IMG/VR virus record: IMGVR_UViG_3300030059_002339
Coordinates: 1 to 34,448 of that record
Origin: a virus
Lineage: Duplodnaviria > Caudoviricetes
Strand: one strand, 5' to 3'
Length of the DNA stretch: 34,448 nt
Part shown: positions 1 through 34,448 of the stretch, piece by piece
Layout: each line of letters starts with the position of its first letter
How positions within the stretch are numbered: the stretch's first letter is position 1
Translations under genes and position numbers: made by a program
Notes under the pieces: model-generated
Told to the model about the DNA's origin: nothing
Databases searched by the model: none
The model's input: only the letters and a program-made list of their open reading frames with translations

Positions 1-114
1 TTTTCCTTGCAGGGTGTTCGGTAAAGGCATGGGTGAGCAGGCAGGGGGTGTTCCGCTGTAACTCTTCGGATTAACCACAACCACAGAGGGGAATGAGCAA
101 TTAAATTGACTCAC
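1..114. repeat. Terminal direct repeat, copy 1 (identical to 34335-34448); contig circularises
   Basis: TTTTCCTTGCAGGG...AATTGACTCAC occurs verbatim at both ends (114 bp). Confidence 0.97.
72..96 (+). repeat. 25-bp direct repeat TAACCACAACCACAGAGGGGAATGA, copy 1 (contains RBS + ATG)
   Basis: Identical to 346-370. Confidence 0.95.
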
Positions 115-11351: not shown

Positions 11352-11381
11352 ATTAAAACTAATTTTAATGAGGGGAATGTT

Positions 11382-25910: not shown

Positions 25911-26020
25911 TTCTTCACCTGTGCTTGCATCCATTGCTCAGCCAATGCTTTCGCCTGTTGAACGGTGTAGTGGCGCATAACTAAATCACGCCCCTGAAAG
26001 TGGAATTTATGAAGTTTCAC
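25907..26020 (-). CDS. Hypothetical protein (37 aa, MKLHKFHFQGRDL...)
   Basis: Translated by hand; GTGA/ATGA overlaps; AGGGG RBS. Confidence 0.55.
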   Translation of the reverse strand: MKLHKFHFQGRDLVMRHYTVQQAKALAEQWMQAQVKK

Positions 26021-26331
26021 GACAATTCCCCTGCGACCTTGCCGATCTCGGAGGATACAGAGGTAAGAACAGCCACTTTGATCTCTGCAAAATCACCGGT
26101 TTTTATATCACGCTGGCAGTTGATCTTTTCACCTGTGCCGATGTTAAAAATAGCATTCCAGAAATCCTCGTTTTGAATCAGTGAATCAATAGCTATCGCC
26201 TTTATATCCTCGTCGCCATTGCTCAGGCTGTTAAATATTTGTTCTTTAGCCTCGCTGAATGCCTCGGTGGTGAAATGCTCTTTGTATGTCTCGTCGCCGT
26301 GTGTTGCATCGTTATTCTGTAAATCAATCAT
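26017..26331 (-). CDS. Hypothetical acidic protein, first gene of the leftward operon (104 aa)
   Basis: GAGGGGAAG RBS before ATG 26331. Confidence 0.7.
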   Translation of the reverse strand: MIDLQNNDATHGDETYKEHFTTEAFSEAKEQIFNSLSNGDEDIKAIAIDSLIQNEDFWNAIFNIGTGEKINCQRDIKTGDFAEIKVAVLTSVSSEIGKVAGELS

Positions 26332-26359
26332 TTTCTTCCCCTCGGTTGTCGATGTGTGA

Positions 26360-26388: not shown

Positions 26389-26392
26389 GGTA

Positions 26393-26420
26393 TTGCTAGA
26401 ATATTTATTTGTGCTATGAT
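26393..26420 (+). promoter_or_regulatory. Rightward early promoter TTGCTA-16-TATGAT with TGn extension
   Basis: Back-to-back with the leftward promoter. Confidence 0.65.
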
Positions 26421-26445
26421 TCGTAAAACTAAACGGGAGAACGCA

Positions 26446-26595
26446 ATGAGCGACACAAGAAAACTAGCACCATACAAACCCTATATAGGGCAGAGAGTGC
26501 AGATGGACGAACTACTAAAGCAGCGGGGCATAACTTACGCACAGCAACACAGGGACGCTATGAAGGCTTACTTAAAAAAGGAGCTGAGAAAATGA
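26446..26595 (+). CDS. Small basic protein, possible ribbon-helix-helix regulator (49 aa)
   Basis: Translated by hand: MSDTRKLAPYKPYIGQRVQMDELLKQRGITYAQQHRDAMKAYLKKELRK; GGGAG RBS; ATGA overlap. Confidence 0.6.
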   Translation: MSDTRKLAPYKPYIGQRVQMDELLKQRGITYAQQHRDAMKAYLKKELRK

Positions 26596-27491: not shown

Positions 27492-27715
27492 GTGAATCGA
27501 ATCCAGTAGAGCCGAGCCACTACGTTGATATGAAGTTATCACCTCTCGACTACATTATGGCCAATGAGGGTGATTTCACATGGTGTATAGCTAATGTCAT
27601 TAAGTATGTATCGAGGTATAAGAGAAAAAACGGGCTTGAAGACCTGAATAAAGCTAGATGGTATTTAGATCGACAAATACAAGAGCTGGAAAACCTAACG
27701 GACACAACCAAATGA
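27488..27715 (+). CDS. DUF3310-like (T7 gp1.7-related nucleotide kinase-like) protein
   Basis: V.PSHY...NVIKYVSRY..KNGLEDLNKARWYL. Confidence 0.85.
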   Translation: MSESNPVEPSHYVDMKLSPLDYIMANEGDFTWCIANVIKYVSRYKRKNGLEDLNKARWYLDRQIQELENLTDTTK

Positions 27716-27978
27716 AAAACCTGCACATAGAACTAGTTAAAAAATGGCTGGCCGATCCTAAATCAGTTAGCGCAGAAGAGTTAGAACGTGCTGATACTGC
27801 TGCTGCGGTTGCTGCTGCGGTTTCTACTGCGGTTGCTAATGCTGCCTCTTATGCTGCTCGCGCCGATAACACTAAGCACTGGGGTGAACAACATACCGCC
27901 GATGCTGCTGCTGCTCATGCTGCTCGTACCGCTCACGCTAAATACTGGCTGGAAAAATATGAGGAGCTAACCAAATGA
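27712..27978 (+). CDS. Ala-rich hypothetical protein
   Basis: MKNLHIELVKKWLADPKSVSAEEL, GCT-repeat Ala tract, YWLEKYEELTK; ATGA overlaps. Confidence 0.7.
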   Translation: MKNLHIELVKKWLADPKSVSAEELERADTAAAVAAAVSTAVANAASYAARADNTKHWGEQHTADAAAAHAARTAHAKYWLEKYEELTK

Positions 27979-28163
27979 GTCACGCAGACAACAAAACCCA
28001 CGGCGGCAAAGGTGTGTCACCTATCAAGCCCCGAAACTGGCGACAGGCAGACATCAACTGGGCCATACTGATGGAGAACAATAGGCGCGAACGATCAGGG
28101 CTACCGACAATGACGCCGGTAGAGGCTGATATTTTTATTATTTGCAACGCGGATAAAACATAA
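27975..28163 (+). CDS. Hypothetical protein
   Basis: GAGGAG RBS; ATGA overlap. Confidence 0.65.
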   Translation: MSHADNKTHGGKGVSPIKPRNWRQADINWAILMENNRRERSGLPTMTPVEADIFIICNADKT

Positions 28164-28170
28164 TTAGAAT
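28142..28170 (+). promoter_or_regulatory. sigma70 promoter TTGCAA-17-TAGAAT with no downstream ORF before a terminator
   Basis: Near-consensus hexamers with optimal spacing. Confidence 0.65.
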
Positions 28171-28175
28171 AACGC

Positions 28176-28240
28176 ATAGCAAAGCTTCCCCTCTGTCGTG
28201 TTGCTGCAACTAAGCCCAGCCTAAAAAACTGGGTTTTTTT
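28176..28240 (+). ncRNA. Candidate small RNA with anti-Shine-Dalgarno loop (CUUCCCCUCUGU)
   Basis: Promoter, AGCAA/UUGCU hairpin with C-rich loop, then terminator; no ATG-initiated ORF. Confidence 0.55.
28212..28240 (+). terminator. Rho-independent terminator AAGCCCAG...CTGGGTTTTTTT
   Basis: Stem plus 7-U tract. Confidence 0.85.
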
Positions 28241-28275
28241 GTGTCTGTAATTTGAGTAATAAATTAATTTCACAT

Positions 28276-28320
28276 AAGCGCACGAAACCGCTTGCAAGCG
28301 CATGAAACATTGCCTATAAT
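28276..28320 (+). promoter_or_regulatory. Promoter TTGCAA-17-TATAAT with 13-bp direct repeats AAGCGCA(C/T)GAAAC flanking the -35
   Basis: Repeats at 28276-28288 and 28296-28308. Confidence 0.75.
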
Positions 28321-28353
28321 TAACTTACTGAAACAAACAACAGAGAGAATATT

Positions 28354-28566
28354 ATGAAAGGCTTTAATCAGAAAGCGCTTAACAATGCCGTGCTTGCAAC
28401 AGCTTATTTAGTAGAGGAGGTCTTTGGAAAATTTTATCTTTCAAAACTAAAAAAACTAACAGCGAGGGATTTTGAAGAATACTTAGAGCTGGGAATAACG
28501 CAAGAGCAGCTGGACATAGCAATGTTTGACACCTGCAATCGCGTAAACATTACCGTCGATTGTTAA
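28354..28566 (+). CDS. Hypothetical protein
   Basis: First ORF after a strong promoter; GAGAG RBS. Confidence 0.65.
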   Translation: MKGFNQKALNNAVLATAYLVEEVFGKFYLSKLKKLTARDFEEYLELGITQEQLDIAMFDTCNRVNITVDC

Positions 28567-28608
28567 AACCTTCGGGGCTACGGCCCCACAATCACAACGG
28601 GGAATAAC

Positions 28609-28812
28609 ATGACAATAACGCAGATTTTAACAATGTCTGACAGGCTTAATCTAAAGGCAGGCACAGAGCTTGCTTGCCGACTGGTAATACTTGAAGGCTT
28701 AACTTTCTACGCTGCTGAGAAACAAGTCTGGGGTCGCAGAACAGGCACAATCGGCAAAGCCTGCAAACGATTGCGCGATGAATTGGAATACTGCAAAAAG
28801 GTAGCGAAGTGA
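28609..28812 (+). CDS. Small HTH-type regulator (TrfB/PapB-like), paralogue of 34031-34261
   Basis: ACRLVILEGLTFYAAEKQ...TIGKACKRL. Confidence 0.6.
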   Translation: MTITQILTMSDRLNLKAGTELACRLVILEGLTFYAAEKQVWGRRTGTIGKACKRLRDELEYCKKVAK

Positions 28813-29000
28813 GTAGGCGCAAATTTAACAGTATTGAGCAGGCCGCCAAAGCATCAAGGCTAGCTACTATCGAGCTGGCAGCACAACGGGCAGCATTCAA
28901 GGCTAACGGCGGCGCAGTGGAGTTTTTCGGCGTTACACGGTCGCATACTTTTACCATTGGGCAGCAAGTATCAATTGTAATGAGCAGCGAGGGCAAATAA
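28809..29000 (+). CDS. Hypothetical protein
   Basis: GTGA overlap; F.ANGG.V motif. Confidence 0.55.
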   Translation: MSRRKFNSIEQAAKASRLATIELAAQRAAFKANGGAVEFFGVTRSHTFTIGQQVSIVMSSEGK

Positions 29001-32184: not shown

Positions 32185-32350
32185 ATGGGTAAGCGGTAGA
32201 CGTAAAGCGGCAAAGGCTGGCATTGCTGATATTAGGGCGATGCTAGAGACATAACCAAATGGAATACCTACGGCTTAACGGTATAACCAAAGTTCACTAC
32301 CCTGTTAATCAGCAGGGTTAGATAATAGCAGCACATAAGAGGGGGGAATA

Positions 32351-32626
32351 ATGAATAAGGCCGAGAAATTTATAATTCTATACCTGGGCAAATGGCCCGA
32401 CAAAGTTAAATCTGTGAACGACATCGAGCTTGAATCAAGGCTTTACGGCATTAGTCACATAAAGTTGGTACAAGCTTTTAATTCTCTTGAGTACAGAGAG
32501 GACGCAAAGAAAAACCGTACTGATTTAATCAGGCAAGTCGACGGCATGGGGCAGGATGGCAATTTTGGGTTTAAGTTGACGCAAATGGGCAGGCTCGAAA
32601 ATAAGCGATTGAGGGGTAAGGTATGA
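32351..32626 (+). CDS. Hypothetical protein, possibly winged-helix
   Basis: GAGGGGGG RBS; FKLTQMGR ending. Confidence 0.6.
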   Translation: MNKAEKFIILYLGKWPDKVKSVNDIELESRLYGISHIKLVQAFNSLEYREDAKKNRTDLIRQVDGMGQDGNFGFKLTQMGRLENKRLRGKV

Positions 32627-34030: not shown

Positions 34031-34261
34031 ATGAACGATAAGCAAAAATCCATAATGCGCCGCAAGCTCGACATGGCTTGTAAAAGCGCCAGAGTATCGG
34101 GGCTAGTTTCAGAGGCGGTGCAGCACGTTATCATCGAGGGTATAACGCCAGCACAGGCCGAGAGAGAGTGGTTAGGCGGCGTGACAAACACGGTAGGCAG
34201 GGCGCTTAATAAAGTTAAAGCCGAGCTTCTTAGATTTGAGGCTTTCAAAGCTATCAAGTAA
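34031..34261 (+). CDS. Small HTH-type regulator, paralogue of 28609-28812
   Basis: AVQHVIIEGITPAQAERE...TVGRALNKV. Confidence 0.6.
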   Translation: MNDKQKSIMRRKLDMACKSARVSGLVSEAVQHVIIEGITPAQAEREWLGGVTNTVGRALNKVKAELLRFEAFKAIK

Positions 34262-34267
34262 TAACAA

Positions 34268-34404
34268 TTTGAGGGGTTACAGCGAAGCGCCTGACTCGCA
34301 ATTATGCAACGCGCATAACTCACAGCCGAGCCGATTTTCCTTGCAGGGTGTTCGGTAAAGGCATGGGTGAGCAGGCAGGGGGTGTTCCGCTGTAACTCTT
34401 CGGA
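34268..34404 (+). ncRNA. Candidate structured RNA (~137 nt, long closing stem, internal hairpins)
   Basis: 17-bp stem 34268-84/34388-404 with G-U pairs, 7-bp extension, two inner hairpin domains; no ORF in the track. Confidence 0.6.
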
Positions 34405-34448
34405 TTAACCACAACCACAGAGGGGAATGAGCAATTAAATTGACTCAC
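34335..34448. repeat. Terminal direct repeat, copy 2
   Basis: Identical to 1-114. Confidence 0.97.

What the first reader, a model, noticed from the sequence alone, without database searches (positions are those of the whole stretch)
28142..28240. Stand-alone small RNA with an anti-Shine-Dalgarno loop matching the phage's own GAGGGGAA ribosome-binding sites
Seen: a TTGCAA-17-TAGAAT promoter (28142-70), ~65 nt with no ATG-initiated ORF, then a strong terminator (28212-40). The 5' part can fold AGCAA/UUGCU, exposing UUCCCCUCUGUC in the loop. That loop is the exact complement of ACAGAGGGGAA (11 nt) in both 25-bp repeats (83-93, 357-367) and of GAGGGGAA before the moron gene (11370-77). It also matches GAGGGGAAG before the first leftward gene (26335-43), where pairing can extend (UGUCG/CGACA, UGU/ACA). 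Partial matches (GGGGAA) precede 28609, 29460 and 32351. Major late genes (terS, terL, coat) use GGAG-type RBSs instead. Established: C-rich anti-SD loops are how sRNAs such as RsaE, RNAIII and AbcR repress translation. Inference: a phage-encoded trans-acting sRNA that shuts down a set of early/accessory genes, in a phage with no visible CI repressor.
Basis: partly seen in the sequence, partly recalled or inferred. Interest (0 to 1): 0.85.

Follow-up and report, generated by a model that had tools for sequence, protein, structure and literature searches.

The report
Phage small RNA masking early ribosome-sites
A family of uncultured marine phages conserves a 65-70-base non-coding unit with a predicted promoter and terminator, whose predicted open loop is complementary to the ribosome-binding sites of several of the phage's own early genes, so it likely acts as a small RNA that turns those genes down, though neither its expression nor its pairing has been shown.

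Summary
Promoter, hairpin with C-rich loop and terminator recur at the same map position in 15 phage contigs (9 distinct versions counting the window). The stem changes on both sides and keeps pairing, two different terminator hairpins occur, and the seed is predicted 87-92% unpaired. Two RNA-target positions vary compatibly across relatives, each only weak support (chance about 0.1 and 1/3). No Rfam match; no CI or integrase. Limits: no expression data, host unknown, 14 of 15 loci were found by the core itself, and repression is inferred. This scan noted the same kind of arrangement before in other phages, on other DNA. Verdict: a new sRNA family that likely works like c4 or C-rich-loop sRNAs.

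The parts
28142..28170 (+). Predicted sigma70-type promoter of the RNA (TTGCAA-17-TAGAAT)
   Evidence: In 9 versions the spacer is 17 nt, -10 varies only at position 3, -35 only at position 6, and 10 of 17 spacer columns vary. In relatives the -35 also lies in coding sequence of the upstream ORF.
28176..28240 (+). Predicted small RNA, about 65 nt (start inferred from the -10)
   Evidence: no transcript data
28177..28206 (+). 5' hairpin: 6-bp stem (28177-82 with 28201-06) closing an 18-nt loop
   Evidence: 5-7 of 7 anchored pairs form in 9 of 9 versions; one pair changes A-U to G-C in L018 and L029
28186..28193 (+). Seed UUCCCCUC, complement of GAGGGGAA
   Evidence: Mean unpaired probability 0.87-0.92 in 9 of 9 versions
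28212..28240 (+). Predicted intrinsic terminator; would also end the upstream rightward operon
   Evidence: hairpin plus U tract in 9 of 9 versions, in two different sequence types
26335..26353 (-). Predicted target 1: 5' leader and RBS of the first leftward early gene, behind promoter 26388-26360
   Evidence: two conserved blocks, variable 1-5 nt linker, in 6 of 6 versions; base 26350 faces RNA base 28197
26017..26331 (-). First gene of the leftward (recombination) operon; 104 aa, acidic (pI 4.3), function unknown
   Evidence: 28 metagenomic relatives; model pLDDT 47, unusable
32326..32348 (+). Predicted target 2: leader and RBS of gene 32351, after the DnaB-like helicase
   Evidence: Best of 62 starts; base 32327 is A with RNA U28205 here, G with RNA C in L029 and L026
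346..370 (+). Predicted target 3: 25-bp repeat copy 2, RBS of gene 373-636 (11-nt perfect complement at 357-367)
   Evidence: no relative covers it
72..96 (+). 25-bp repeat copy 1 (11-nt complement at 83-93), before a 3-codon ORF only
32604..32621 (+). Weaker predicted target: RBS of the YopX-family gene 32623
11370..11377 (+). Seed-only match before accessory gene 11382 in the head cluster
   Evidence: -9.0 kcal/mol net, rank 10 of 62; gene absent from relative L133
27975..28163 (+). Conserved 62-aa ORF whose end overlaps the RNA's promoter
   Evidence: 73-85% identity in 6 relatives; last 5-7 residues differ by a frameshift

Best explanation
The unit at 28142-28240 is a conserved, non-coding phage element predicted to make a 65-nt small RNA that likely base-pairs in trans over the ribosome-binding sites of a subset of the phage's own early genes and so likely represses their translation. 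Shown: the sequence anatomy, its conservation, and the complementarity. Inferred steps: host RNA polymerase transcribes it from DNA entry on (and the rightward operon ends in the same terminator); the stable RNA accumulates; the unpaired C-rich seed nucleates on GAGGGGAA/GGGGGGAA; pairing extends, into a second leader block for the leftward gene and into the 3' stem arm for gene 32351; the 30S subunit is excluded. Because the main targets are first genes after intergenic gaps, polarity could carry the effect downstream. The net result would be a delayed shut-down of recombination and accessory early genes, sparing GGAG-type starts such as the RNA's own operon, terminase and coat.
For: Syntenic conservation in 14 of 18 metagenome pattern hits plus one contig found by protein alone. 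Stem pair A-U to G-C, two terminator types, -10 varying only at its loosest position. Minus-strand ORF not conserved. Top-4 leaders: -26.6 against -21.7 +/- 1.4 kcal/mol with the CCCCUC core fixed, 0 of 500 shuffles as good; best single leader 6 of 500; loop-only version 26 of 1000. Early starts pair better than late ones (Mann-Whitney p = 0.002). The leftward leader keeps both pairing blocks while the linker, the -35 and the downstream genes change. Target 2: own RNA-leader pairs beat crossed pairs by 2-4 kcal/mol in both directions. A C-A mismatch at the variable loop position occurs in 0 of 6 versions.
Against: No transcript evidence. The core was the search pattern for 14 of 15 loci, so its invariance is largely circular. 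Each trans-covariation is one evolutionary event: about 1/3 by chance for target 1, about 0.1 for target 2 (background 14 of 93 and 19 of 93 differing columns). The window's C allele is no improvement: the U allele pairs the window's own leaders better (-24.4 against -22.9; -34.2 against -30.4). For the leftward leader alone, 45 of 1000 core-fixed shuffles pair as well. The loop also reaches -20.9 on 1 of 56 starts of phage H6/1, which lacks the RNA. GATAAT just above target 2 could be a -10, which would put the extended pairing outside the mRNA. Host mRNAs could not be ranked.
Confidence: 0.65

Rival explanations
1. The RNA is real but its main targets are host mRNAs with G-rich ribosome-binding sites (host takeover); the matches to phage leaders are secondary.
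For: Any C-rich loop matches many SD sequences; phage sRNAs such as PreS and VpdS act on host RNAs (PMC12197685).
Against: Pairing with phage leaders extends beyond the anti-SD core more than core-fixed shuffles give (0 of 500), and two phage leaders are conserved in the pairing blocks. Host unknown, so not tested directly.
Confidence: 0.12
2. The RNA is the immunity or carrier-state repressor of a non-integrating phage, in the manner of P4 CI RNA or P1 c4: it silences lytic early genes in a plasmid-like or pseudolysogenic state.
For: No CI or integrase among 61 ORFs; predicted constitutive promoter; targets head early operons.
Against: No partition genes found; the replication initiator 30104 and the rightward operon are poor targets; no relative found in 185,579 prokaryotic genomes with two marker proteins.
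Confidence: 0.1
3. It is only the 3' end and terminator of the rightward operon; the C-rich loop is a relic inverted leader or a structural element with no trans action.
For: The terminator is needed after ORF 27975 anyway; the -35 lies in coding sequence in relatives; core conservation is biased by the search.
Against: The -10 and 17-nt spacing persist in non-coding DNA, the -35 survived a frameshift in the window, the stem covaries around an open loop, and the protein-found relative L017 keeps the seed.
Confidence: 0.1
4. The motif is the ribosome-binding site of a translated minus-strand ORF starting at 28177.
For: GAGGGGAA lies 8 nt before an ATG that opens 65 codons in the window.
Against: Of 15 loci, the 65-aa ORF exists only in the 2 identical to the window; the ATG is lost in 7, the frame ends after 25 aa in 5, 1 is cut by the contig end. 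An alternative TTG gives 46-67 aa in 5 loci but 7-14 aa or nothing in the rest, the window included. No minus-strand promoter match nearby.
Confidence: 0.02

Closest known systems
c4 antisense RNA of phages P1 and P7
   Same: Phage RNA of similar size (77 nt, from a reference title in PMC8546580) acting in trans on its own phage's mRNA around the ribosome-binding site, with pairing sequences in loops (PMC12197685, passage; PMC8546580, passages).
   Different: c4 is a processed RNA of the immI operon and controls antirepressor synthesis. This unit has its own predicted promoter and terminator, no Rfam match, no antirepressor gene in view, and several scattered predicted targets.
CI RNA of satellite phage P4
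   Same: Small RNA as a phage's own repressor, pairing with short complementary sites (PMC4825925, passage).
   Different: CI is cut from the leader it regulates and pairs with seqA and seqC on either side to cause termination; here the targets lie 1.8-6.5 kb away, on both strands.
C-rich-loop sRNAs of bacteria (6C of M. tuberculosis; RsaE, RNAIII, AbcR)
   Same: Unpaired C-rich loop binding several mRNAs (6C: abstract of PMC6486639; RsaE, RNAIII and AbcR recalled, not read).
   Different: Those are chromosomal regulators of host genes; no sequence-family match; one loop here, aimed at a phage's own leaders.
Start-associated sequences (SAS) of cluster K mycobacteriophages
   Same: An asymmetric motif at the RBS of a subset of genes after intergenic gaps, with a single copy in the opposite orientation not tied to a gene start (PMC3203893, passages).
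   Different: SAS is a different 13-bp motif in 11-19 copies with unknown function; the paper does not describe the reverse copy as an RNA gene. Here there are 4 exact sense copies per genome, and the reverse copy has a promoter, stem and terminator.

Membership tests
c4 antisense RNA (P1/P7) | Match to the Rfam c4 model | tested here: not met
   No Rfam family matches the window at E <= 5
c4 antisense RNA (P1/P7) | Encoded in a c4-icd-ant operon and processed from its transcript | tested here: not met
   No antirepressor family among 61 ORFs; own promoter and terminator matches
c4 antisense RNA (P1/P7) | Blocks translation by pairing at the target's ribosome-binding site | not testable with these tools
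   Complementarity shown; repression needs an experiment
P4 CI RNA | Complementary seqA and seqC sites flank the RNA in the same transcript | tested here: not met
   Best complementary sites are at 26335, 32326, 357 and 83, none flanking
P4 CI RNA | Causes premature transcription termination and immunity | not testable with these tools
   Needs infection or reporter data
C-rich-loop trans-acting sRNAs (mechanistic class) | C-rich motif unpaired in a conserved hairpin loop | tested here: met
   Predicted unpaired 0.87-0.92 in 9 of 9 versions; stem covariation
C-rich-loop trans-acting sRNAs (mechanistic class) | Several mRNA targets complementary at the SD region | tested here: met
   Computational only: top-4 leaders beat 500 of 500 core-fixed shuffles
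C-rich-loop trans-acting sRNAs (mechanistic class) | Discrete expressed transcript | not testable with these tools
   No RNA holder listed; no RNA reads could be examined
RsaE, RNAIII, AbcR, 6C (sequence families) | Match to the family covariance model | tested here: not met
Cluster K SAS | 13-bp SAS consensus in 11-19 copies | tested here: not met
   Different motif, 4 exact sense copies per genome against the paper's description
Cluster K SAS | Single copy in the opposite orientation, not at a gene start | tested here: met
   28186-28193; its minus-strand ORF is not conserved

The most novel reading that the evidence does not exclude
A repressor-less, integrase-less lambda/P22-type phage runs its early-gene shut-off with one small RNA. 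The phage marks a class of early genes with a G-rich ribosome-binding site and silences that class with a single complementary loop, with RNA and leaders evolving together. This would be an RNA timer (or copy-number sensor) doing a job known mainly from protein repressors and RegB-type nucleases, and it would offer a testable explanation for SAS-like motifs with a lone reverse copy.
Probability: 0.45. Interest if true: 0.8.

Novelty: new variant of a known kind. Interest (0 to 1): 0.62.

Why it matters
Known phage antisense RNAs that act on their own phage (c4, CI, sar, OOP, aQ) each control one lysis-lysogeny gene or operon, and the trans-acting ones described recently act largely on host RNAs (PMC12197685). 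A free-standing RNA that addresses a class of the phage's own early genes through their shared RBS type would be a different control logic. This example is small (99 bp with promoter), self-contained and comes with natural RNA-target variants, so it can be tested directly with reporter fusions without isolating the phage.

Tried and rejected
Rfam: 0 matches. blastn of 27900-28620 against cultured phages: 19 short chance matches only. Exact 16-mer in IMG/VR: 8 of 8 unrelated. Replication-protein relatives L010-L014 and phage H6/1: no RNA by covariance model. Loose promoter-plus-CCCCTC pattern: 93 loci, only 1 related, already known. Target-2 pattern in IMG/VR: 1 hit, unrelated. Prokaryotic genomes: no relative for two markers, so no host. 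L036 carries the leftward leader but its contig ends before the RNA. Sequencing runs: no RNA holder listed, which says nothing on expression; DNA contigs laid on the region were short and the difference table was cut, so it gave no unbiased view of the core. The pair count is discounted: it included 2 spurious rows and misaligned L018 and L029; RNAalifold on the MAFFT alignment failed for the same reason; the anchored count is used. The promoter column counts are void (L018 mis-anchored); one search is used. Third-position bias of the plus ORF (115 against 46 and 22) does not discriminate, because the minus frame shares third positions. 104-aa protein: no family, no Atlas hit, AlphaFold pLDDT 47, so no fold search. 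Energies are ViennaRNA duplex plus opening terms, not IntaRNA; start codons are my own picks, and the set of 62 includes the 3-codon ORF at 93.

Full report
Context. The window is a complete virus record with a 114-nt terminal repeat. It has P22-like head genes, a lambda-O-like initiator with a DnaB-like helicase, NinB, NinG and a leftward recombination operon; no CI-type repressor, integrase or antirepressor family was found among 61 ORFs scanned against PHROGs. The nearest cultured phage by coat protein is Pseudoalteromonas virus vB_PspP-H6/1 (66%). Runs that hold this DNA are marine. The host is unknown.

The observation. Promoter match, hairpin, loop and terminator are at the stated coordinates. 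The promoter match alone is what chance gives (20 against 17.6), and the fold is modest (z = -2.3). The motif count is not chance: GAGGGGAA occurs 6 times against 0.8 expected, that is four sense copies per genome plus the reverse copy in the RNA and one terminal duplicate. Three of the four sense copies sit at gene starts; the fourth precedes a 3-codon ORF.

Conservation. A neighbouring protein led to one relative, L015/L017, which keeps both hexamers, the seed and the terminator with 7 differences in 99 bases, 4 of them in the promoter spacer. A scan of metagenome contigs with the 19-base core gave 18 loci; 14 are syntenic phage contigs and 4 are chance. Two of the 14 equal the window. With the window there are 9 distinct versions. 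Because the core was the query, its invariance in these 14 is not evidence; what lies outside it is. The spacer is 17 nt throughout, the -10 varies only at position 3, and 10 of 17 spacer columns vary. The stem forms 5-7 of 7 anchored pairs in every version; in L018 and L029 one pair changes from A-U to G-C, the next from U-G to U-A, and a further C-G pair appears; this is probably one event. The terminator comes in two sequence types that both fold. The seed is predicted 87-92% unpaired in all 9.

The minus-strand ORF. The 65-codon frame behind GAGGGGAA exists only in the window and its two identical contigs. Of 15 loci, 7 lack the ATG, 5 end after 25 residues and 1 is cut off. The plus-strand ORF 27975 is the conserved gene. 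This rival is rejected.

Targets. Against 62 starts of the window, net energies (duplex plus opening) rank 32351 (-19.4), 373 (-17.3), 26331 (-17.0), 32623 (-15.1) and repeat copy 1 (-13.5), median -3.5. With the anti-SD core CCCCUC held fixed and the rest shuffled, the top four beat 500 of 500 shuffles for the 28-nt domain, the single best is matched by 6 of 500, and the loop-only test gives 26 of 1000. RGGGG-type sites precede 11 of 32 early and 1 of 30 late starts; GGAG does not separate the classes. Against this, the leftward leader alone is matched by 45 of 1000 shuffles, and 1 of 56 starts of H6/1, which lacks the RNA, reaches -20.9.

Target conservation. The leftward leader has 6 versions; all keep CATCRACA and CGAGGGGAA, separated by 1-5 variable bases that would bulge out, although the -35, the divergent small regulator and the downstream recombination genes are exchanged in some relatives. 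At the one variable loop position the pairs are C-G (window), U-A (4 versions) and U-G (1 version), never C-A. That is compatible with pairing but expected by chance one time in three, and the U allele pairs the window's leader slightly better than the window's own C allele. The 32351 leader is conserved behind unrelated replication genes in L029 and L026 while the protein behind it has no BLAST alignment. Its base 32327 is A where the RNA has U and G where the RNA has C, in 2 of 2 relatives holding both; own pairs beat crossed pairs by 2-4 kcal/mol. Background divergence there is 15-20%, so one event has a chance of about 0.1. A possible -10 just upstream could exclude this stretch from the mRNA.

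Mechanism. Shown: anatomy, conservation, complementarity. Inferred: transcription, accumulation, seed nucleation, ribosome exclusion, and a delayed turn-down of recombination and accessory early genes (confidence 0.65). That some RNA is made from the unit I put at about 0.85. An immunity role is possible but unsupported: the initiator and the rightward operon are poor targets. The function of the 104-aa first leftward gene stayed unknown.

Comparison with what is known. It works like c4 of P1/P7 and like C-rich-loop bacterial sRNAs, and is a member of neither family. Papers seen: PMC12197685, parts 1-2 of 6 and passages; PMC4825925, passages; PMC8546580, passages; PMC3203893, passages; PMC6486639, abstract and outline. 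RsaE, RNAIII, AbcR and RegB are recalled. No supplements were read; the review's table of 38 undescribed phage sRNAs could bear on novelty. Searches for a comparable phage system returned 2, 0 and 0 papers in a library that lacks most subscription journals. The scan's own notes describe similar anti-SD loops in other phages (223 findings matched the words, 8 shown); none matches this sequence or this genome. They are unchecked notes and not support.

Verdict. Real, conserved and previously uncatalogued; new variant of a known kind; interest 0.62.

Noticed in passing
window 34266-34406 (continuing over the terminal repeat into 1-72): A strongly folded non-coding stretch of about 140 nt with a 19-bp closing stem (z = -4.5, 0 of 200 shuffles), between ORF 34031-34261 and repeat copy 1; no Rfam match. 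Could be a second RNA, an antiterminator leader or an RNase III site. No relative covers it.
   Followed up: partly
window 28809-29000 (+): 63-aa protein with a weak match to the SutA RNA-polymerase-binding domain (PF20661, E = 0.024, below cut-off), conserved at 71-78% in 6 relatives, no match in cultured phages. Possible phage transcription factor.
   Followed up: partly
window 28609-28812 and 34031-34261: Two paralogous small proteins (37-42% over 38 residues via relatives), each downstream of a promoter match; helix-turn-helix-like by eye only.
   Followed up: no
window 32300-32320; L029 and L026 equivalents: Conserved inverted repeat (6-bp arms, 8-nt spacer) just above the 32351 leader, within about 95 bp of conserved intergenic DNA behind exchangeable replication genes: operator, hairpin or promoter element.
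   Followed up: partly
window 26390-26595; L018, L029, L035: The small regulator divergent from the leftward operon is replaced by a different 48-aa protein in some relatives, together with the promoter region, while the leftward leader is kept.
   Followed up: partly
window 72-96 and 346-370: The 25-bp direct repeats flank gene 149-370 like an exchangeable cassette; copy 1 is followed by a 3-codon ORF and a small hairpin and could act as a decoy for the RNA.
   Followed up: no
L017 8701-9021: The first leftward gene keeps its first 16 or so residues but has a different body (27% identity), so leader and N-terminus travel together.
   Followed up: partly
window 27712-27978; L018, L024, L030, L035: Ala-rich ORFs with a shared N-terminus occur in one to three tandem copies in relatives.
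   Followed up: no
L019 1570-1625: Short duplication around the RNA's promoter giving two -10-like sites.
   Followed up: no
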